Source of the DNA: Escherichia phage JLBYU50
Sequence record: OK272470.1
DNA: 64,000 bases
Reading direction: 5' to 3' (one strand)
Positions 8,155-16,320 of this stretch are shown in pieces; position 1 is the first letter of the stretch; each line of letters begins with the position of its first letter. A model generated the notes under the pieces. The model was not told the origin of the DNA. It saw nothing but the letters and a program-made list of their open reading frames with translations, and made no database searches. The translations under genes were made by a program, and so were the position numbers.

Positions 8155-8586
8155 TTAATCAGTGAAAATTACGCTTACATCTTCTTTAGAAAAGAGTTTA
8201 TGATCTTCACCTTTTGTCTCAAGAGTTTCATACAGGTTAAGAAGTTCTGAAACATCTTTCTCTACCAGTTTCTTCAATGTTGCAATTTTCTGTTTGCGAT
8301 TCTTAATACGTTCAGCTACAACCTTACGTTGGTATCCAGCAGTACGATAACCTGAGAAAGTTACACCAGTGAGACTTGCAGTTACAGGATCGTAATGACG
8401 TTCAATCTGAAATTTATTAAAAGGTACAGCGTCATCACGAATAATCTTCCCGCCATTACTTACTTGACGAAGACCAGTAACTTGTTCTAGTCGTGCCATA
8501 GAAATCTTTGGAGACAGACCAGAGTCTAGGTTCATACCATTGTTAATCAGTGCTTTCAGGGTGATTTTGCTGTTCAGTGTACTCAT
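8155..8586 (-). CDS. Hypothetical protein (start uncertain; overlaps upstream methyltransferase 3' end)
   Basis: 143 aa ORF on the - strand downstream of the MTase. Basic C-terminal region. No motif recognised. Confidence 0.4.
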   Translation of the reverse strand: MSTLNSKITLKALINNGMNLDSGLSPKISMARLEQVTGLRQVSNGGKIIRDDAVPFNKFQIERHYDPVTASLTGVTFSGYRTAGYQRKVVAERIKNRKQKIATLKKLVEKDVSELLNLYETLETKGEDHKLFSKEDVSVIFTD

Positions 8587-9274
8587 TTAGTCGTTCCTCC
8601 GCTTGCTTAAAAATATTTACATCGGCTTCACAGCCTAAGTATTCTCTACCTGTTAAAAGTGCCGCAACTTGTGTTGTTGCACTTCCAGAGAAGAAGTCTA
8701 AGACTACATCTCCTTCGTTGGTGTGTATATTAATAAGGTCACAAAACAAAGTCAAGTGTTTTTGTGTTGGATGAAAACGATCTGCTCCTTGATAGATAGG
8801 ATACTCAAACACACCCTTATGGTAGGAAGCATTGAAGGTTGGCTTAGAACCTTTAACACAAACAATAGCCATTTCTTTAGCGTTACTAAGGTAGTTAACA
8901 CCACTGTTGATGGGTACAGGGTTTGTTTTAATCCATTCAATAGTACGGAACATACGAAAACCAAGCGGTTCAAGGATTTCACGTAGCTCCTGGATCTTCC
9001 AGATATCATACCAAACTATGCAAGTACCACCTTTTCTAAGCACCCTGTAGGCTTCTTTGAATACTTCTTTAAAGTAAGGAATATCTACAACATCCCAATC
9101 ACCAAAGTTGTAAGATACACGGAATCTATCCGTATCTTTTCCAGTAGGCTCTCCAGATTGAAAATTTGTGTCACGAGAAATAGCATATGGTGGGTCAGTA
9201 AGAATCAAATCTACACTATTGCTTTCGAGGGTTTGCAGGTAGTTTAATGCGGTGTTGTTTACAAATTCGCTCAT
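8543..9274 (-). CDS. DNA methyltransferase (amino-MTase: N6-adenine or N4-cytosine), orphan
   Basis: 243 aa. Motif IV DPPY near N-terminus (ILTDPPYAISRD) and motif I FxGSxTT near C-terminus (LDFFSGSATT). No adjacent restriction endonuclease candidate. Confidence 0.8.
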   Translation of the reverse strand: MSEFVNNTALNYLQTLESNSVDLILTDPPYAISRDTNFQSGEPTGKDTDRFRVSYNFGDWDVVDIPYFKEVFKEAYRVLRKGGTCIVWYDIWKIQELREILEPLGFRMFRTIEWIKTNPVPINSGVNYLSNAKEMAIVCVKGSKPTFNASYHKGVFEYPIYQGADRFHPTQKHLTLFCDLINIHTNEGDVVLDFFSGSATTQVAALLTGREYLGCEADVNIFKQAEERLNEYTEQQNHPESTD

Positions 9275-9293
9275 TATATCTCCTTCAAAGAAA

Positions 9294-9311
9294 AGGAGCC
9301 GTTAGGCTCCT
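9294..9311 (-). terminator. Terminator-like hairpin between SSB-like gene and methyltransferase
   Basis: AGGAGCC-GTTA-GGCTCCT; on the - strand it is followed by TTTCTTT. Confidence 0.45.
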
Positions 9312-9334
9312 TATATTCACACAATATTTAACTA

Positions 9335-10282
9335 TTAGAAACAGTGCAGGAAGTTTCGACCATACTGCAAACCAATAGGAGCAAATGGGATATCATCATC
9401 GAAATCTTGAACAACAGGTTCTGGTTCTTTCGGTGCTGGCTCTTTCTTCTCTACTTTTTTAGTTTCTTTCTTAACTTCTTGTACTGGGGTAGACATTCCA
9501 CGGATAGCAGCAGCTACTTTATCAGACAAAGCAAGAACTTCACGAGCAGCTTCAATAATCTCTTCTGCCGTTACAGTTTTACCTGTATGATCACGACAAG
9601 CGTTAAGAATTGCGTGTCCAACTGAAGCACCAAGATCATAATCAGTCACATCAACGCCACGATCTTTAGCAATTTCTGCTTTCAGAGTAACAGTTGCAGA
9701 TTGTACCACACCAGCCAAGTCGAAAGCATCACCTTTCACACCAGCACGTAGAAGCTCCAGAGCGCCGTTTACAGCGTGTCCTGTTTCAATCCCTACGGTA
9801 TCACGTTTTTTGTAGTTAGGCTTGCTACCTTCGTTATTAGATGGCTTATTTCCACCTTTTGAAGAAGATTGTGCTTGCTGAACACCTTCTGTTGAAAGAA
9901 TAGTGATTTTACCTTTAGAGGAATTGTAGTATGTTTTGCCATTCCATTCAGAAGGTTTAACATCCATAGTTAGTTCTACACCTTTTTCGATAGTAACCCA
10001 CTTGTCACCATCTTTAACTTGCAGGTTTTCATGTTCTGGATGCAGTTTAACTTCACCTAGGCTAACCCAAACACCTTTATCATCAGCACTAGCACCTTTC
10101 TCTTTAATAAGCAGAGATGCTTTGTGAGTTGATTCAATTTTCTTATCTGGCTGACCTGCAACCTTAATATAAGAGACTTTCATTTCATCAAACTTATCCA
10201 GTTTGACATATTCAACGATACCTTCAGCCCAGAATGCTTCTTTTTTAGTACGACGGTCGATTTCAGAATTAATTACTGGCAT
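9335..10282 (-). CDS. Putative single-stranded DNA-binding protein with SSB-like acidic DFDDDIPF motif
   Basis: 315 aa in the replication module. Contains the exact SSB tail motif DFDDDIPF, but followed by 15 further residues. N-terminal half is K/W-rich and beta-rich (OB-fold-like). Terminator hairpin downstream at 9294-9311. Confidence 0.5.
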   Translation of the reverse strand: MPVINSEIDRRTKKEAFWAEGIVEYVKLDKFDEMKVSYIKVAGQPDKKIESTHKASLLIKEKGASADDKGVWVSLGEVKLHPEHENLQVKDGDKWVTIEKGVELTMDVKPSEWNGKTYYNSSKGKITILSTEGVQQAQSSSKGGNKPSNNEGSKPNYKKRDTVGIETGHAVNGALELLRAGVKGDAFDLAGVVQSATVTLKAEIAKDRGVDVTDYDLGASVGHAILNACRDHTGKTVTAEEIIEAAREVLALSDKVAAAIRGMSTPVQEVKKETKKVEKKEPAPKEPEPVVQDFDDDIPFAPIGLQYGRNFLHCF

Positions 10283-10740: not shown

Positions 10741-11334
10741 TTAAATCTTAAATTCTTCGTTGTTAAATGAATCTAGTGTACGTACTTCTGGCTCTTTGGG
10801 AATGAAAACGTCTTTTACAAAGCGGAACATAGGGAAACGTTCTGCCATTTTACGGACGTGTGCTTCTTTACCTGTGTATCGGTGATTAATAGTACAAATA
10901 TTAGTTTTCAGTGCAAATTCAAAATCTGGATGATATACATAATTTTGACCATCCCAGTAACACAAGCAAATAGCTACATCAAAGTTCCATACGATTTCAC
11001 TGCGTACACCTTCTTCCATGATCATAAAGTTAAACTTAAGATCTTTATAGTATGCTTCAAATACCCATTTCAAATGTGGTAGTTCGGCATAAGTGTGTTC
11101 TGTTTGCTTAGTAAGTTGTTTAACATTACGTGCACCAACACCCAACATCAAAAATTTCTCTACTAGTACGATTGTATTGTGGTTAGGCATACGCAAGTAA
11201 ATATCAATATCTTGCGCAGGTTTCTCTAATCGCCAATCACGTACAGCGCCGCCAGCTACAATTGCAAACGGATCTACCAGTTGGCACATACGTAACACTT
11301 CTAAAGCTCGTACTTTTTGATCTTCAATATTCAT
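10741..11334 (-). CDS. Pol-beta superfamily nucleotidyltransferase (CCA-adding enzyme / poly(A) polymerase head-domain-like)
   Basis: 197 aa. Motif VAGGAVRDWRLEKPAQDIDIYL matches the GG(A/S)VRD....D.D signature of tRNA nucleotidyltransferase-family head domains. Confidence 0.6.
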   Translation of the reverse strand: MNIEDQKVRALEVLRMCQLVDPFAIVAGGAVRDWRLEKPAQDIDIYLRMPNHNTIVLVEKFLMLGVGARNVKQLTKQTEHTYAELPHLKWVFEAYYKDLKFNFMIMEEGVRSEIVWNFDVAICLCYWDGQNYVYHPDFEFALKTNICTINHRYTGKEAHVRKMAERFPMFRFVKDVFIPKEPEVRTLDSFNNEEFKI

Positions 11335-11471: not shown

Positions 11472-14051
11472 TCAGTGACAACTAGCCCATGAGTTACCAA
11501 CATCGTAACCAGCAGTGAGAGGTACATTAAGATTGTAATACTCACCAGCTTTATTAACAGCAATAGATGCTAATTCTCCAGCACGACTGTAGGCTGTAAA
11601 CCAACCACCTTTCGGAGATTCATGTACGTTAGCCCAAATCTTGCCAGTACGTTTCTCTTCCTCTTCTTTCCAGGTATTAACTTTATCCAAACATTCTTTA
11701 TCAATTTTCTTTTGTTCTTCTGGATCATCAACTTGAGTCCAACCTAAAGATTCTTTAGAGAACCATTTAAAATGCACCAGATCACGAGTTACTTCAAGCT
11801 GTGCTTCATCGTGGTATGCAATCATTTGTTGAACGAATGACTTATTTTTCCAGTCATCAACAAAAAAGTCAACAGCTAATCCTTCTTCTTCGATAAGATC
11901 ATCGTAGATAACCATTGCTCTTTTTGCACAAATAACACCACCACTCTGGAACAGAGAGTTAAGTATTGCGTGTGCAGATCGTGTAGGTACTTTCCTTCCA
12001 TCAATACCAAGAATGTATTTCTTACCTGTTTTAACCCAAAAATCATGCAGACGTTCTTTAAGAAGAGCAAGAGGTTTTGCAGCTTCCCAGAAAGCATCGT
12101 ATACAAGCTGTCCTGTATACATATCACTACCAATGGTTTTTGCTACTTTTGCAGCTTGAGCACCATAAGTAATACCATACTTAACAGATTTAGCAGGGCT
12201 TCGTTCAAACTTACGACCAATAGTATCAGAAATACGTCGAGCCATCATTGTATGAACATCATTAGGTTTTTCCAACAATAGAGCATTACAATATTCGTGT
12301 GGTTCCTGCTCGTACCGCCAACAGTAGTGTGATTCTATTTTTGCCTCAAGAGAATCAAAGTCATAACCAATTTGGAAGTATTTTGGAACTTCTACACCAA
12401 ATAAGTTACGCATTTCATATCCGTACAGAGATGTTACACGTGGGATATTTGCTACTAACCTATGTTTCATACGAGATGTAGCTGCATCACACGTTGCAGC
12501 AGGAGTTGGTATACGACCATCAGCCCTTACTGCTGCCAGATAACCTTTATCGTAATCCTCTTCATCTTCTTCCCAATCAGCACCACCCCCTAAAATAGAG
12601 TTCCTACGGTGTTTATACGTAAGATACTGCACAATCTGCGTAGCATAAGGAAACTTTTCACCTAGTGCTTCCAAGTTAGGACAAATATCTTTCTCTTGCC
12701 CTTTTGTAAAGGAAGGGTTAGTAAGCACTTTAACACCACGACCTTTAGCTTTAGCAATACGATCTCTTAGTTTCCATTCCAAAGTTTCTGGTGTGCACTC
12801 CAGATGATCACATCTGTCCTGGCAGAAGTTAGATGCTAATGTTTGATCAACGTAGTCACGAATAGCTTTCTCCATTTGTGCTTCATCTTTCTTAATCTTA
12901 GTGCCAGATTTAAGAGTGATATCTTTATCTTTATATTCAGATGGACTCCAACCTAAACCAACTAACCAGTTTTTAATATGTGTAGTGTCATCTAAAGTAG
13001 CAGGTACTGTAGGATCACAAATAGGTTCTTCTGCTGGAATAGGGAGTTTAAACTCTTTACCTAATGCAAATAACCACCAACCATCTTCTTTTTGTACAAG
13101 TTCACCAGAATGTTTCTCTGCAAACTTTATCATGTTACTTGAAGGTTCACCATTCTTTTTAAACTGTAGTTTAGGTGGAATGAATGATTTCAAATAACCT
13201 TTAGTAGCAGGTTTGGGAGGTAGTACAGGTTCTGCCTCTAAACGACATGCTTCCATTCGAGCATCCAGATCACGAATATTATCTTCTGCTTGTTTCATAT
13301 TGAAAGCAAAGCCACGGTGCTCTTGACGTGTAATAATATCAGCTACACGTTGTTCTAAGTTAAATGGTTCAGACCACTTATTATAATCACCCCACTCTTC
13401 CATCAAATAACGGAACACTGCGGTGTTAGCTTTGTTATCGTAAATACAGTAATACAGCATATCTGCTGCAAATGTTTTAAATCTTTCAGTTTCAGGAATG
13501 TTTTTTCTAAAATCAATTTTAACATCCCCTCCAGCTTTCTTAGATAACTCTGCCAGACTATGACCACCGAAGCGATCAGGGTTTAGTGTCTTACTTAAGA
13601 TCATAGTATCACAAATTTCAATGTTACTATTACCCCAAGTATTGTACTTAATACTATAGTTGAGTTTAAAAAATAATTTAATTGCCAGTAAGTCGAAGTT
13701 AATGATGTTGTGTCCAACTACTTTGGTAATTTTATAGTTTGAATTACCTTTAAATTTACCTGTTCCATTTACAAAATCAGGAAAATCTTTAAGAGGGAAA
13801 TGGGTATATTCTAAATGCTCATATTCCTCCAGTCGGTATTCATACTTTCCGTCAGTCTCAATATACGGACGACCATCGAAAAGATATTTATCACCATCAT
13901 GGAAAGCAATAATCTCTCCAGTATCATGACTTTCGCACACAATACAGTGCATTGCAAAACTATCTTTTAAACGATATGGACTTGCCAAGTAATCTACACT
14001 TTCGTCATTAAGCAAGTTGTTACTTTCAATGTCGAAAGTAAAAGCTCCCAT
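11472..14051 (-). CDS. DNA polymerase, family A (with 3'-5' exonuclease domain)
   Basis: 859 aa. Exo I motif FDIES at N-terminus. Pol A motif B (KSVKYGITYGAQA) and motif C (YHDEAQLEV). Confidence 0.9.
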   Translation of the reverse strand: MGAFTFDIESNNLLNDESVDYLASPYRLKDSFAMHCIVCESHDTGEIIAFHDGDKYLFDGRPYIETDGKYEYRLEEYEHLEYTHFPLKDFPDFVNGTGKFKGNSNYKITKVVGHNIINFDLLAIKLFFKLNYSIKYNTWGNSNIEICDTMILSKTLNPDRFGGHSLAELSKKAGGDVKIDFRKNIPETERFKTFAADMLYYCIYDNKANTAVFRYLMEEWGDYNKWSEPFNLEQRVADIITRQEHRGFAFNMKQAEDNIRDLDARMEACRLEAEPVLPPKPATKGYLKSFIPPKLQFKKNGEPSSNMIKFAEKHSGELVQKEDGWWLFALGKEFKLPIPAEEPICDPTVPATLDDTTHIKNWLVGLGWSPSEYKDKDITLKSGTKIKKDEAQMEKAIRDYVDQTLASNFCQDRCDHLECTPETLEWKLRDRIAKAKGRGVKVLTNPSFTKGQEKDICPNLEALGEKFPYATQIVQYLTYKHRRNSILGGGADWEEDEEDYDKGYLAAVRADGRIPTPAATCDAATSRMKHRLVANIPRVTSLYGYEMRNLFGVEVPKYFQIGYDFDSLEAKIESHYCWRYEQEPHEYCNALLLEKPNDVHTMMARRISDTIGRKFERSPAKSVKYGITYGAQAAKVAKTIGSDMYTGQLVYDAFWEAAKPLALLKERLHDFWVKTGKKYILGIDGRKVPTRSAHAILNSLFQSGGVICAKRAMVIYDDLIEEEGLAVDFFVDDWKNKSFVQQMIAYHDEAQLEVTRDLVHFKWFSKESLGWTQVDDPEEQKKIDKECLDKVNTWKEEEEKRTGKIWANVHESPKGGWFTAYSRAGELASIAVNKAGEYYNLNVPLTAGYDVGNSWASCH

Positions 14052-14141: not shown

Positions 14142-14537
14142 TTATTTATTGTCAGCACTTAATTGTACTTTAATAAGGCAATTAGGGACACCATTGGTAT
14201 TTCTCAAGCCTACACGTTCAATTTTAACTGTCCCTGTTAAGCCACTAAAAGTGGAAACAATGTTATTAATGTTTTCATCCTTACTAGCGATATCAAGAAC
14301 AACTTTATCACTAACATTTTTCAACATACGATCTACAAGCTCTCCCACAAAACCACTGGTAGTTTGAATGAGAAGGTATAGACAACCATCCTCAAACCAC
14401 AAATGTTCACCATAAGCATAACCGTATGGTTCTAACTCCGATCCATCTTGAAATTTAAACTTAGCAATAGTTTTCGTATAATCATACCCTAACGCAGAAG
14501 GGGATACCCCATAGAGGATATTTTCGTTGTCTTTCAT
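14142..14537 (-). CDS. Hypothetical protein
   Basis: Start reassigned to internal ATG (MKDNENIL...) preceded by RBS aaggagag. The longer ORF-track version would overlap the primase-helicase 3' end. Confidence 0.4.
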   Translation of the reverse strand: MKDNENILYGVSPSALGYDYTKTIAKFKFQDGSELEPYGYAYGEHLWFEDGCLYLLIQTTSGFVGELVDRMLKNVSDKVVLDIASKDENINNIVSTFSGLTGTVKIERVGLRNTNGVPNCLIKVQLSADNK

Positions 14538-14547
14538 ATTTCTCTCC

Positions 14548-16320
14548 TTAATAAGAACCATCAGGAATATTCTCTGGGTTACTTGTGTATTGATCGTAAT
14601 CGTGAAGTGTAGCTGTTTTAATCTCATAGAAGAAACTACCTGCTGCACCAGTCTCTGAGAACTCACGGTTCTTTAGAATGTAGCAATATGTGCGGTTACG
14701 TTCCATAGGATCTTCAGCTTGTTTATCACGCTCCAGCGCAATTGTGATACCAGCACCTTTAGCAAGGAAGCTACTACCCATTGCATCATCTTCTACAATA
14801 TGTTCATTACTATTGTTAGAAGACTTTTTAACGTGTGAAATTACAACAATGGTAATTGCGTACTCTTTCATAATGCGTTTGAGCCACGTCGCAAGTTCCT
14901 CTTGTTGTGACACGTCCATACCAGAAAGCAAGTCAGAATAAGGGTCGATAACAAGAATGGTTACTCCGAAATAAATAATCATTTCCAGAACCTTCTCTTT
15001 AATCACATCTACGTTAGCTCCACGATCATCACAAACATAGAAACGTGGTGTTCCATCTTCTCGTTCGTAAAAATCACGAATCTTTTCTTCATTATCTTTT
15101 AAAATCTTTTCCTTCTCTTCTTTCGTTTTACGGTGAAGAGGGATATGCAAGAATGAAGACAGTAAGTTACGAGAATACTTCTTATACGTTGCCTCCAAAG
15201 ATAAAATACCAAGAGTATGTTCTGGGTGTGCAAGAATAATGTGCTTCGTAATCTCGTTAACCAACAGTGTTTTACCGATACTTGTTTTTGCAAGTATAAC
15301 AGTAATTTCTTCTTCTACCAAGCCTCCACCTAACATATTAGAAGCAACACGCATGAATGGAGGAAGGGTGATCATTTTAGCTTCCAGGCATTCCAAGGCT
15401 GCTTCATACAGTACGTTAGAAGCGTAAACACCAGCAGGTGTGTACAGTTTAGCTTTGAAAAAGCGATCAATAAAATGATCAATTTTTCCTTCTACTAGTG
15501 CCTGGTTAGGATCTTTAACATCAGTTAGTTCCATCACGTAAACTTTATTACGTGGTAAGATTTTAACACATTTCTCAACTGCTGCACGTCCAGCGTCATC
15601 ATTGTCCATACATAGAACAATCTTTTTAAATTGGTCTAAGAATTTATAACGATGTTGAAGCTGCTTATGCAGAGATGTTTCGCCACAAGTACCAGATACT
15701 ACAGCAGGAACAGGATATTTACCACCCTTGTTATAATCTTTTAGCATCTGTGTTGCAGCCAGCATATCGTGTTCACCACCAACGATTAGAATAGTACCGC
15801 TGTGGTTACGATATTTAAACTCCCCAAAAAGATCACAATCCTTTCCTGTTTCACCGATAGGATGTGAGAAATCTTTTGGATCGATACGTTGTTTATACCC
15901 CGCAATATTGTAATCTTTAGTTGTAGGGTATAGTGTTGAAATTACTTCGCCAGTAGCTTCATCGTACATATAACGTACACCGAAAGGCTTAGAGATATCT
16001 TCACGAATACCGCGATAACCTTTTGGATTAGTTCCAGTGCTGGCTTTTAGTTTATCATGTACTTCTGGATTAAACTCACTACCCAAGATATCCTCCTCTT
16101 CAATTTCTTCGCCGTGTGCATTTAACCATTTTTGATCAGGGATAGTAAAGCCACAAGAAAAACAATGTGCGCCTCGATGGTCTTCATCGGCATCTAAGCC
16201 ATATACCATCAAATTGTTTTGTGATCGATCACGCCCTCCTTTCATACAACGAGGACACCCAGTATGTCCTTCTTGACTTAGATCAATGTTATACCCATAT
16301 TTATTTACAACATAAGACAC
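14548..16320 (-). CDS. Bifunctional DNA primase / replicative helicase (T7 gp4-like)
   Basis: 590 aa. N-terminal Zn-ribbon (CPRC...CFSC), central TOPRIM-like region (MDNDDAG), C-terminal DnaB-like helicase with Walker A (AKTSIGKT) and Walker B-like (LVIDPYSDL). Confidence 0.85.
   Translation of the reverse strand: MSYVVNKYGYNIDLSQEGHTGCPRCMKGGRDRSQNNLMVYGLDADEDHRGAHCFSCGFTIPDQKWLNAHGEEIEEEDILGSEFNPEVHDKLKASTGTNPKGYRGIREDISKPFGVRYMYDEATGEVISTLYPTTKDYNIAGYKQRIDPKDFSHPIGETGKDCDLFGEFKYRNHSGTILIVGGEHDMLAATQMLKDYNKGGKYPVPAVVSGTCGETSLHKQLQHRYKFLDQFKKIVLCMDNDDAGRAAVEKCVKILPRNKVYVMELTDVKDPNQALVEGKIDHFIDRFFKAKLYTPAGVYASNVLYEAALECLEAKMITLPPFMRVASNMLGGGLVEEEITVILAKTSIGKTLLVNEITKHIILAHPEHTLGILSLEATYKKYSRNLLSSFLHIPLHRKTKEEKEKILKDNEEKIRDFYEREDGTPRFYVCDDRGANVDVIKEKVLEMIIYFGVTILVIDPYSDLLSGMDVSQQEELATWLKRIMKEYAITIVVISHVKKSSNNSNEHIVEDDAMGSSFLAKGAGITIALERDKQAEDPMERNRTYCYILKNREFSETGAAGSFFYEIKTATLHDYDQYTSNPENIPDGSY

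What the first reader, a model, noticed from the sequence alone, without database searches (positions are those of the whole stretch)
9335..10282. SSB-like protein carrying an internal copy of the E. coli SSB C-terminal peptide DFDDDIPF followed by a 15-residue extension
The exact host-SSB tail motif, which recruits many replication and repair proteins, occurs 15 aa before the C-terminus rather than at the end as in canonical SSBs. The protein may be an SSB whose partner-binding tip is masked, a hijacker of SSB-interacting host proteins, or the product of a frameshift in the source sequence.
Basis: seen in the sequence. Interest (0 to 1): 0.45.

Follow-up and report, generated by a model that had tools for sequence, protein, structure and literature searches.

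The report
Phage SSB with capped partner-binding tip
A phi92-like phage's single-stranded-DNA-binding protein carries the universal bacterial SSB docking tip (DFDDDIPF) buried under a conserved 15-residue cap that in related phages arrives as the front end of a mobile homing-endonuclease cassette, and that also occurs on many other phage and prophage SSBs. It should change which proteins the tip can recruit.

Summary
ORF 9335..10282(-) encodes 315 aa ending ...DFDDDIPF|APIGLQYGRNFLHCF*. It is not a frameshift: 55 phi92-like (Justusliebigvirus) genomes keep the same ORF.

The protein has a predicted OB-fold domain, a four-helix domain, a disordered linker and the tip. It is homologous to Bas52_0087, the "SSB-like" DRT10 trigger of a 2026 preprint. 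About 80% of sampled relatives end exactly at ...IPF.

The 15-residue extension is a portable module. In three near-identical allele pairs, extension plus an HNH-type endonuclease gene form one insertion starting exactly after the Phe codon. One pair shows both junctions: 638 bp between Phe codon and stop. The endonuclease start codon lies inside the extension codons. The window keeps only the extension.

The same extension type also sits on canonical phage and prophage SSBs without any endonuclease (full-length match in at least 158 of 5,426 complete E. coli genomes). It evolves under purifying selection in the SSB frame only. Other host clades have other extension types.

One extra C-terminal glycine abolishes detectable SSB–chi binding in the literature. 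So the extension most likely re-specifies the tail. The partner is unknown. I found no description of these extensions; the SSB-like family and its tip are already described.

The parts
9335..10282 (-). Gene for the 315-aa SSB-like protein (phrog_4477 family; phi92 gp156 ortholog)
   Evidence: ORF. It matches 55 Justusliebigvirus records at 95-100% nucleotide identity. PHROG phrog_4477 E 2.5e-101. Homolog of Bas52_0087, blastp 5e-15.
9893..10282 (-). N-terminal all-beta domain (aa 1-130), predicted OB fold
9803..9892 (-). Linker between the two domains (aa 131-160); aa 136-156 predicted disordered
   Evidence: pLDDT below 50 for aa 136-156. Variable in length and sequence in alignment A1.
9497..9802 (-). 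Four-helix domain (aa 161-262), the most conserved part of the family; function unknown
9407..9496 (-). Lys/Pro/Glu-rich disordered linker (aa 263-292)
   Evidence: Block pLDDT about 49-60. Hypervariable among relatives.
9383..9406 (-). DFDDDIPF, identical to the E. coli SSB C-terminal tip (SSB-Ct)
   Evidence: Profile hit to the C-termini of SSB chains 7f2n and 1eqq. P299 and F300 are invariant in 55 relatives.
9338..9382 (-). 15-residue extension APIGLQYGRNFLHCF ('A15' class cap)
   Evidence: Conserved module A-P-[IV]-G-L-[QPM]-[YF]-x-x-x-x-[IL]-[YH]-x-[IL]. It differs at 6 of 45 nt, all synonymous, from the extension inside the Mt1B1_P17 endonuclease cassette. pN/pS is 0.3-0.4 in this frame against about 0.9-1.7 in the other frames. 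AF2 leaves it disordered and undocked.
9328..9363 (-). +1-frame mini-ORF MVETSCTVSNS*, matching the first codons of the homing-endonuclease ORF of relatives (MVETSCIASKVCFKCG...). A putative stump, not independent of the extension similarity.
   Evidence: No endonuclease homolog anywhere in the 64-kb window. No detectable similarity to the endonuclease gene beyond the stop codon (my reading).
9293..9312 (-). Intrinsic-terminator-like hairpin (AAGGAGCC-TAAC-GGCTCCTT + T-run) between the SSB-like gene and the methyltransferase gene
   Evidence: One such site was found in the scanned region; shuffles give 0.8 on average, so this is a weak statistic.

Best explanation
[quoted passage not shown] It sits in the replication module next to a family-A DNA polymerase and a primase-helicase. 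Its parts are an OB-fold domain, a four-helix domain, a disordered linker and an E. coli-type SSB tip.

The 15 residues after the tip are a distinct, portable peptide module. In related lytic phages this module is the first 45 nt of a mobile insertion, 638 bp in the one case measured. The insertion carries its own stop codon and an HNH/endonuclease-VII-type homing endonuclease gene whose start codon lies inside the extension codons in the +1 frame. It sits exactly after the last sense codon (Phe) of genes ending in DD(I/T)PF. In this phage the endonuclease gene is absent and only the extension remains.

The peptide itself is kept by purifying selection. It also occurs, without any endonuclease, on canonical SSBs of temperate phages of enterobacteria and vibrios.

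Shown: anatomy, homology, insertion boundaries, distribution and selection.

Inferred: canonical SSB-tip pockets need the free carboxylate of the last Phe, so the extension prevents ordinary docking of host SSB partners such as chi and ExoI. It would turn the tail into a longer, bipartite docking peptide with altered partner specificity. The partner is unknown. That extension types follow host clades hints at a host factor, but a clade-limited recombination pool would explain it equally well.
For: SSB identity:
- OB-like N-domain.
- Synteny with DNA_pol_A and Toprim+DnaB_C genes.
- phrog_4477 membership and homology to the DRT10 trigger Bas52_0087.

Tip normally terminal: 79 of the 100 sequences returned, including the two distant tail-only hits P0099 and P0100, end at ...PF.

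Cassette:
- ESCO13 and Mt1B1_P17 are 98.6% identical over 984 nt up to the Phe codon. Mt1B1_P17 then has extension plus endonuclease and ESCO13 has nothing.
- KE22 and KE23 primase-helicase C-terminal 184 residues are 99.5% identical, and only KE23 has extension plus endonuclease.
- Bas52 and Bas49 differ by a clean 638-bp insertion between the Phe codon and the stop, with 18 of 44 gene differences in the last 150 nt.
- The endonucleases downstream of an SSB gene and of a primase-helicase gene are homologous, 41% identity, E 5e-22, and belong to phrog_2340 or phrog_1035.
- Decayed endonuclease remnants lie behind extended alleles P0070 and P0057.
- None of 12 unextended IMG/VR alleles has the endonuclease.

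Selection:
- Window versus Mt1B1_P17: 6 synonymous and 0 non-synonymous differences.
- A15 set: pN/pS 0.37-0.42 with saturated pS, against 1.2-1.5 in the other frames. Lytic-only set: 0.31.
- Six different DNA sequences encode the identical APVTLPFPRHAIHAI.

Breadth:
- 190 of 611 phage records that match the tail query cover at least 80% of it, that is tip plus most of the extension.
- At least 158 of 5,426 complete E. coli genomes hold a full-length match.

Masking logic: SSB+Gly has no detectable chi binding and is impaired in vivo (PMC3045619).
Against: - No partner has been identified, and AF2 leaves the tail disordered and undocked.
- The tip stays strictly conserved in extended proteins. 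This is odd if it were simply switched off, so a bipartite-motif or unmasking reading is needed.
- Extended and unextended alleles alternate between near-identical phages, so the fitness effect may be small or context dependent.
- The same endonuclease family also sits directly behind unextended tips (AV125, Shigella phage 2KOFFS), so the extension is not obligatory for the element.
- In the window itself nothing beyond the stop codon resembles the endonuclease. The cassette origin here is therefore inferred from relatives.
- The extended allele could instead be ancestral and [extension + endonuclease] deleted together in the unextended sisters.
- ssDNA binding has not been shown for any member.
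Confidence: 0.6

Rival explanations
1. Tolerated scar. The extension is only the leftover 5' edge of a lost homing-endonuclease cassette and has no function of its own in this phage. It persists because no single mutation can restore a stop right after the Phe codon.
For: - Extension and endonuclease come and go together in three near-identical allele pairs.
- Both states are viable.
- Endonuclease remnants decay behind retained extensions.
- GCN and CCN codons cannot mutate to a stop in one step (my reading).
Against: - Purifying selection acts in the SSB frame only, also within the lytic-phage set: pN/pS 0.31, and 6 synonymous versus 0 non-synonymous differences for window versus Mt1B1_P17.
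- The full 15-residue length is kept, although in-extension stop mutations are one step away.
- The same peptide is maintained on temperate-phage SSBs that have no endonuclease or stump.
Confidence: 0.15
2. Pro-peptide. The extension is removed by a protease cutting after Phe300, which exposes a normal SSB tip. The conserved F-A-P junction is the cleavage site and the rest is the recognition element.
For: - The tip stays perfectly conserved in extended proteins.
- The junction residues after F are almost always A-P or a small residue in the unbiased protein set: AP in 17 of 21.
- Extension classes differ by host clade, as expected for a host enzyme's specificity.
Against: - To my knowledge no bacterial cytoplasmic protease is known to process SSB tails in this way.
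- No protease gene is linked to the locus.
- This is pure inference. The later DNA scans forced A-P by design, so only one search is unbiased.
Confidence: 0.12
3. Second host-replisome motif. The core P-[IV]-G-L-[QP]-[YF] is a variant of the hexameric beta-sliding-clamp-binding motif (QLxLx[LF], as in Hda QLSLPL or Pol IV QLVLGL; recalled from my own knowledge). Under this reading the tail binds the host clamp in addition to, or instead of, SSB partners.
For: The best-conserved extension positions are [IV]3, G4, L5 (invariant) and [YF]7. Positions 3, 5 and 7 line up with hydrophobic positions 2, 4 and 6 of the hexamer motif.
Against: - Pro replaces the motif's Gln.
- The Pseudomonas (APLHHLAGA) and Rhizobiales (APEWR) extension classes do not fit any clamp motif, although the clamp pocket is conserved across bacteria.
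- These phages encode a T7-like family-A polymerase that should not need the host clamp.
- No structural test was possible.
Confidence: 0.07
4. Immunity allele. The extension matters at the DNA level only. It destroys the endonuclease's target, the tip-stop junction, and so protects the genome from cleavage by endonuclease-carrying competitors.
For: - The endonuclease family repeatedly sits at exactly this junction.
- Endonuclease-positive, unextended alleles carry tip variants DFDEDIPF and DFDSDIPF.
Against: DNA-level protection does not predict amino-acid conservation with saturated synonymous change. It may well be an additional benefit rather than a rival.
Confidence: 0.05
5. Sequencing or assembly frameshift that reads through the true stop.
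For: None beyond the unusual position of the motif.
Against: - The identical ORF is present in 55 independently sequenced genomes.
- The extension is conserved at the protein level in distant lineages.
Confidence: 0.01

Closest known systems
E. coli SSB C-terminal tip (SSB-Ct, ...MDFDDDIPF-COOH), the hub that recruits chi, ExoI, RecQ, PriA, RecO, DnaG and others
   Same: The octapeptide is identical, it is preceded by a disordered linker, and it is attached to an OB-fold protein.
   Different: Here the motif is internal, 15 residues from the end. The OB domain has no detectable sequence similarity to PF00436, and an extra four-helix domain is present. Published SSB+Gly data say an internal Phe should not fit the chi pocket.
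Bas52_0087 of Vequintavirus RudolfGeigy, the 'SSB-like' trigger of the DRT10 (UG17) reverse-transcriptase defence (bioRxiv 10.64898/2026.04.29.721553)
   Same: It is homologous in the N-domain and the helical domain (blastp 1.6e-14 and 4.9e-15), sits in a replication-gene neighbourhood and has the FDDDIPF tip. According to the preprint, DRT10 also restricts Stephanstirmvirinae, the subfamily of this window's phage.
   Different: Bas52_0087 is 408 aa with a second inserted OB-like domain and ends exactly at ...IPF. Its near-identical sister Bas49_0089 has the extension plus a homing endonuclease. The passages of the preprint I read do not mention extensions.
Phage T7 gp2.5 (SSB) and gp4 (primase-helicase) acidic C-terminal tails ending in Phe, both of which dock on T7 DNA polymerase (my knowledge; partly restated)
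   Same: In Seunavirus and Vequintavirus relatives, both the SSB-like protein and the primase-helicase end in an acidic DD(I/T)PF tail. Both genes lie in the same replication-gene region as a family-A polymerase gene, and the primase-helicase gene is immediately upstream of it.
   Different: In the window's phage the primase-helicase lacks such a tail and ends ...NIPDGSY. The tail sequence copies the host SSB tip rather than a phage-specific one. Binding to the phage polymerase is untested.
Free-standing homing endonuclease genes of phages, such as the T4 seg and mob genes, and the intron-encoded I-KsaII of Staphylococcus phage K (my knowledge, plus the annotation seen)
   Same: There is presence/absence polymorphism at one precise site between near-identical genomes. 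Divergence is elevated next to the junction. The gene is a small HNH/EndoVII-type endonuclease with a CxxC zinc-finger N-terminus, and it decays and is lost.
   Different: The insertion starts inside the open reading frame of the neighbouring gene, before its stop codon. It therefore adds a conserved, selected peptide to that protein. In the window only the peptide-coding part is left.
SSB+Gly, the engineered E. coli SSB with one extra C-terminal residue (Naue et al. 2011, PMC3045619)
   Same: The tip Phe is no longer C-terminal.
   Different: That is an artificial one-residue extension with loss of function. Here a natural 15-residue extension is maintained by selection.

Membership tests
Bacterial-type SSB (Pfam PF00436) | Sequence match to the SSB family profile | tested here: not met
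   No Pfam family at E up to 1. The PDB profile search matches only the tail.
Bacterial-type SSB (Pfam PF00436) | OB-fold ssDNA-binding domain | tested here: met
Bacterial-type SSB (Pfam PF00436) | Disordered linker ending in an acidic tip whose Phe is the C-terminal residue | tested here: not met
   The linker and DFDDDIPF are present, but 15 residues follow the Phe. The feature is met in 79 of the 100 sequences returned.
Bacterial-type SSB (Pfam PF00436) | Binds ssDNA; oligomer | not testable with these tools
   No biochemical data exist for any family member. The preprint only predicts the fold.
phrog_4477 / Bas52_0087-like phage SSB-like proteins | Sequence homology over the N-domain and the helical domain | tested here: met
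   phrog_4477 E 2.5e-101. 100 homologs. blastp to Bas52_0087 and Bas49_0089, 5e-15 and 2e-21.
phrog_4477 / Bas52_0087-like phage SSB-like proteins | Position in the replication module near a family-A DNA polymerase | tested here: met
   Window gene order: primase-helicase, an overlapping 174-aa ORF, polymerase, nucleotidyltransferase, 132-aa ORF, SSB-like gene. The same order from polymerase to SSB-like gene holds in ESCO13, Mt1B1_P17 and L275.
T7-type shared acidic C-tails on SSB and primase-helicase | Both proteins end in an acidic tail with a terminal aromatic residue | tested here: not met
   The window primase-helicase ends ...NPENIPDGSY without an acidic tip. The feature is met in Seunavirus and Vequintavirus relatives, which end ...DDDTPF.
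T7-type shared acidic C-tails on SSB and primase-helicase | Tails bind the phage DNA polymerase | not testable with these tools
Free-standing homing-endonuclease cassette | Endonuclease ORF present | tested here: not met
   No homolog in the 64-kb window (tblastn). Only an 11-codon +1-frame stump exists. The ORF is present in Mt1B1_P17, KE23, GAP31, Bas49, P0004, P0033, P0049 and L266.
Free-standing homing-endonuclease cassette | Presence/absence polymorphism at one precise site between near-identical genomes | tested here: met
   Three pairs, all with the left junction at the Phe codon: ESCO13/Mt1B1_P17, KE22/KE23 and Bas52/Bas49. Both junctions were resolved only for Bas52/Bas49. This concerns relatives, not the window.
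Free-standing homing-endonuclease cassette | Co-conversion tract (elevated divergence next to the insertion) | tested here: inconclusive
   Bas52 versus Bas49: 18 of 44 differences fall in the last 150 of 1,224 nt. ESCO13 versus Mt1B1_P17 shows no clear gradient (15 differences).
Free-standing homing-endonuclease cassette | Endonuclease cleaves the cassette-free allele and homes | not testable with these tools
   Needs in vitro cleavage and co-infection experiments.
Beta-clamp-binding motif proteins | QL[SD]LF or QLxLx[LF] consensus | tested here: inconclusive
   The A15 consensus P-[IV]-G-L-[QPM]-[YF] matches the hydrophobic positions but has Pro for Gln. The other extension classes do not match.

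The most novel reading that the evidence does not exclude
A family of HNH-type homing endonucleases homes to the stop codon of genes ending in the SSB-tip codons. It carries with it a selected 15-residue 'cap' that turns the universal, carboxylate-dependent SSB-Ct hub motif into an internal motif. Together with the independent cap classes on temperate-phage SSBs (A15 in enterobacteria and vibrios, APLHHLAGA-type in Pseudomonas, APEWR-type in Rhizobiales), this would be an unrecognised, widespread way by which phages re-wire or shield the SSB interactome. It would also be a case of a selfish element editing a protein-interaction hub of its host gene.
Probability: 0.35. Interest if true: 0.75.

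Novelty: new variant of a known kind. Interest (0 to 1): 0.6.

Why it matters
The SSB C-terminal tip is the central recruiting point for bacterial replication, repair and recombination proteins. Its free terminal Phe is considered essential.

Naturally capped tips turn out to be common and under purifying selection. They occur in about 190 of 611 tip-matching phage records, and a full-length match to an extended prophage ssb 3' end occurs in at least 158 of 5,426 complete E. coli genomes. This gives a directly testable question: do phages deliberately keep host SSB partners such as ExoI, RecQ, PriA and chi away from their ssDNA, or do they recruit something else?

Three further points follow:
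- It shows how a homing endonuclease can spread a functional peptide between unrelated replication genes.
- It bears on defence systems that sense phage SSBs, since the homolog Bas52_0087 is the reported trigger of DRT10.
- It matters for recombineering tools that rely on SSB-tail compatibility.

Tried and rejected
- **Frameshift or artefact:** rejected.
- **Pfam and PDB sequence searches:** no family for the body of the protein. Only the tail matches SSB.
- **Foldseek against viral models:** only uncharacterised homologs and weak phage-SSB hits.
- **Literature searches** for the extension sequence, for extended or prophage SSB tails and for clamp motifs on phage SSBs: nothing describing the extension. 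The DARNA preprint was read and is not relevant to the tail.
- **Extension as merely the overlap with the endonuclease reading frame:** rejected, because the +1 frame is unconstrained while the SSB frame is constrained.
- **Endonuclease always accompanying the extension:** rejected. Most temperate-phage extended SSBs have none, and the endonuclease also occurs behind unextended tips.
- **Homolog of the endonuclease elsewhere in the window:** none. The rest of the roughly 147-kb genome was not searched.
- **Intramolecular docking of the tail:** AF2 gives none, but this is low-confidence negative evidence.
- **Extension motif without a preceding tip:** none in 2.2 Mb of fetched loci and none in an IMG/VR scan for PIGLQYGRN. 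Both samples are biased or narrow.
- **Evasion of DRT10 by the cap:** not supported. The preprint reports protection against Stephanstirmvirinae as a group, and no per-phage data are in the text.
Full report
**1. The observation**

ORF 9335..10282 on the minus strand (ATG start, 315 aa) ends ...KEPEPVVQDFDDDIPFAPIGLQYGRNFLHCF*. DFDDDIPF is aa 293-300 (nt 9383-9406). The 15 further residues are nt 9338-9382. The motif occurs once in the six-frame translation of the window.

The octapeptide is identical to the end of E. coli SSB. A profile of the family matches solved structures only through this tail: SSB chains 7f2n and 1eqq.

The gene is present at full length and 95-100% nucleotide identity in 55 phage records. 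These are Escherichia phages alia, VEcB, muut and other Justusliebigvirus; phi92 matches in the protein search. So the window comes from a phi92-like myovirus of about 147 kb, and a frameshift artefact is excluded.

**2. What the protein is**

Pfam finds nothing. PHROGs places it in phrog_4477, function unknown, E 2.5e-101.

An AlphaFold2 model built from 55 homologs (mean pLDDT 79) gives these parts:
- an all-beta domain, aa 1-130;
- a disordered linker, aa 136-156;
- a very confident four-helix domain, aa 163-260;
- a disordered tail from about aa 262 to the end.

The gene lies in a replication module. A Toprim+DnaB_C primase-helicase is at 14548..16320 and a family-A DNA polymerase at 11472..14051. 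A nucleotidyltransferase and a 132-aa ORF follow, then this gene, then an N6/N4 DNA methyltransferase at 8543..9274.

A 2026 preprint identifies the Vequintavirus homolog Bas52_0087 as an "SSB-like" protein with an FDDDIPF C-tip. Escape mutations in it abolish triggering of the DRT10 reverse-transcriptase defence, and the authors report that DRT10 also restricts Stephanstirmvirinae. Bas52_0087 aligns with the window protein over both domains (E 1.6e-14 and 4.9e-15).

I conclude that this is the phage's SSB-type protein. It is an OB-fold relative at the fold level, not a sequence member of PF00436. ssDNA binding is untested for the whole family.

**3. The tip is normally terminal**

Of the 100 sequences returned from the large protein collection, 79 end exactly at ...D(I/V/L)PF and 21 carry an extension. 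Two of the 100, P0099 and P0100, are distant hits through the tail only. Twenty of the 21 extensions fit one pattern: AP[IV]GLQY-x-x-x-x-[IL]-[HY]-x-hydrophobic. Extended members are scattered among unextended ones at all levels of divergence.

**4. The extension is a portable module**

A tblastn search with the 27-residue tail hits 611 phage records, and 190 of them cover at least 80% of the query, that is tip plus most of the extension. The carriers are unrelated proteins:
- canonical E. coli-like SSBs of Vibrio phage BT-1011 and the P22-like Salmonella phage NM-3;
- a different SSB type in Vibrio phage K443;
- the C-terminus of the primase-helicase of Seunavirus-type phages, for example ...DDDTPFAPIGLQYANHAIYVL*.

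The primase-helicases of these phages natively end in ...DDDTPF, as in KE22, PVP-SE1 and Ro1. This recalls T7, where gp2.5 and gp4 share an acidic tail ending in Phe.

Most are canonical SSBs of 150-190 aa, with three main extension classes:
- A15, such as APVTLPFPRHAIHAI, APIGLPYPRHAIYVI and APIGLQYGRNFIHCI;
- B9, such as APLHHLAGA and APHHHLNGA;
- C5, APEWR with or without one more residue.

In bacterial genomes the class follows the host clade:
- A15 in Providencia, Proteus, Sodalis and Xenorhabdus;
- B9 in Pseudomonas;
- C5 in Rhizobium, Devosia and Pseudohoeflea.

The same class sits on different SSB N-domains within a clade. At least 158 of 5,426 complete E. coli genomes hold a full-length match to the NM-3 ssb 3' end including the extension codons, annotated simply as ssb.

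In 2.2 Mb of fetched loci the A15 core never occurs without a preceding ...PF. That sample is biased.

**5. Link to a homing endonuclease**

Three pairs of near-identical alleles differ by [extension + endonuclease gene] against nothing. The junction is at the Phe codon in each.
- **ESCO13 and Mt1B1_P17 (Phapecoctavirus).** They are 98.6% identical over 984 nt, and homology ends at ...ATTCC(G/A)TT.
- **KE22 and KE23 (primase-helicase).** The C-terminal 184 residues compared are 99.5% identical, and only KE23 has the extension and endonuclease.
- **Bas52_0087 and Bas49_0089 (Vequintavirus).** A clean 638-bp insertion lies between the Phe codon and the stop, with homology resuming on the far side. 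Eighteen of 44 gene differences crowd into the last 150 nt.

The endonuclease ORF starts inside the extension in the +1 frame. Its ATG lies in the TAT-GG(N) codons for Tyr-Gly, or in the CAT-GC(N) codons for His-Ala.

The endonucleases behind an SSB gene and behind a primase-helicase gene are homologous: 41% identity, E 5e-22. They fall in phrog_2340 (endonuclease) or phrog_1035 (endonuclease VII). The family has 566 phage hits, including the annotated intron endonuclease I-KsaII.

Further counts:
- Among 12 unextended phrog_4477 alleles from IMG/VR, none has the endonuclease.
- Among eight extended metagenomic homologs, three have it and five do not.
- Two of those five, P0070 and P0057, still show endonuclease-like DNA beyond the stop codon.

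The same endonuclease family also abuts unextended tips in AV125 (DFDEDIPF*) and Shigella phage 2KOFFS (DFDSDIPF*). So the element targets the 3' end of tip-coding genes in general.

In the window no endonuclease homolog exists. The extension DNA differs at 6 of 45 positions from that of the Mt1B1_P17 cassette. The +1 frame reads MVETSCTVSNS*, against MVETSCIASKVCFKCG... in Mt1B1_P17. This "stump" is a by-product of the extension similarity. I see no similarity past the stop codon. The cassette origin in this phage is therefore an inference from relatives.

**6. The peptide is under selection**

All six differences between the window and Mt1B1_P17 are synonymous in the SSB frame. Two of them fall inside the endonuclease ORF and both change its amino acids.

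Nei-Gojobori counts give the following:

| Set | pN/pS in SSB frame | pN/pS in other frames |
|---|---|---|
| 32-33 unique A15 DNAs | 0.37-0.42 (pS about 0.8, saturated) | 1.2-1.5 |
| Lytic-phage subset | 0.31 | 0.9-1.7 |
| B9 class | 0.30 | about 1.4 |

The 0.42 and 0.30 values exclude the two codons fixed by the search pattern.

Six different DNA sequences encode the identical APVTLPFPRHAIHAI. Vibrio phage BT-1011 keeps the peptide (3 of 15 residues differ from the window) although 7 further codons differ synonymously and the +1 frame is broken by stops.

The extension is therefore a functional peptide. It is not just a scar and not a shadow of the overlapping gene.

**7. How it most likely works**

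Adding one glycine to the C-terminus of E. coli SSB abolishes measurable chi binding and impairs growth, because the terminal carboxylate and Phe fit a closed pocket (PMC3045619). From my own knowledge, other partner pockets such as those of ExoI, RecQ and PriA use the same logic.

A 15-residue extension should therefore prevent ordinary docking of host SSB partners. Yet the tip stays conserved in extended proteins, and the junction is nearly always F-A-P.

The reading I favour is a bipartite docking peptide with altered specificity. The partner is unknown. The clade-specific classes could reflect a host factor, or merely a recombination pool confined to each clade.

The alternatives are scored separately in the rival explanations: proteolytic unmasking, a clamp-type motif, DNA-level immunity to the endonuclease, and a tolerated scar. 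The clamp idea fits the A15 hydrophobic pattern but not the other classes.

**8. Comparison and novelty**

The SSB-like family and its tip have been noted before, in the Bas52_0087 preprint. The extension, its breadth, its selection and its coupling to a homing endonuclease inserted before the stop codon were not found in any of the literature searches. These searches cover open-access papers only. I rate it a new variant of a known kind.

**9. Limits**

- No binding or cleavage experiment exists.
- Complex prediction was not possible with these tools.
- Only 64 kb of the phage genome was examined.

Noticed in passing
L002 1024-3078, L001 1018-3081, L010 1-1529 (relatives); window 14548..16320: Primase-helicases of Seunavirus and Vequintavirus phages natively end in an SSB-tip-like ...DDDTPF, a T7 gp4/gp2.5-like arrangement. 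The window's own primase-helicase (590 aa) ends ...NPENIPDGSY and lacks it.
   Followed up: partly
IMG/VR loci L011-L130; genome loci L132, L135, L143, L169, L182, L183, L191, L200, L202: Prophage and phage SSBs of Pseudomonas carry a 9-residue extension (APLHHLAGA-type). Those of Rhizobiales carry APEWR with or without one more residue. Paenalcaligenes has AP[LM]LAR.EY.I. B9 and C5 show pN/pS below 0.3 in the SSB frame, though the C5 sample is tiny.
   Followed up: partly
L008 1440-1640 (AV125), L009 1440-1640 (Shigella phage 2KOFFS): The same endonuclease family sits directly on the stop codon of unextended SSB genes, with overlapping start and stop. These alleles have tip variants DFDEDIPF and DFDSDIPF, possibly self-immunity changes in the target site.
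   Followed up: no
window 10741..11334 (-); L275 396-1034; L277 270-1082: The 197-aa nucleotidyltransferase (phrog_1614) lies between the polymerase and the SSB-like gene. At the syntenic place a relative has a product with a Pfam Gad2 hit (anti-Gabija family) and another relative has a SIR2-domain gene. This may be a variable anti-defence slot.
   Followed up: no
window 8155..9274 (-): An N6/N4 DNA methyltransferase (8543..9274) and a 143-aa ORF (phrog_20244, unknown function) occupy the space downstream of the SSB-like gene. Phapecoctavirus relatives have there either nothing or the endonuclease before the convergent tail gene.
   Followed up: no
window 14142..14666 and 14548..16320 (-): A 174-aa ORF with a GTG start overlaps the 3' end of the primase-helicase gene by about 120 nt in another frame. 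It was not examined.
   Followed up: no
L001 3060-3140: In Klebsiella phage K54_rec1 the extended primase-helicase is followed by a hairpin and a different, AP2-like HNH endonuclease. The +1 frame of the extension keeps only NMQFM*. This looks like replacement of one endonuclease by another at the same site.
   Followed up: no
P0100 (179 aa) and L009 1130-1510: A third, small SSB-like family with an N-terminus like MSDYDNENKGVLFPN or MAQYSDVNTGIIGPN also ends in the E. coli tip. It occurs with the A15 extension (P0100) and without it (2KOFFS).
   Followed up: no
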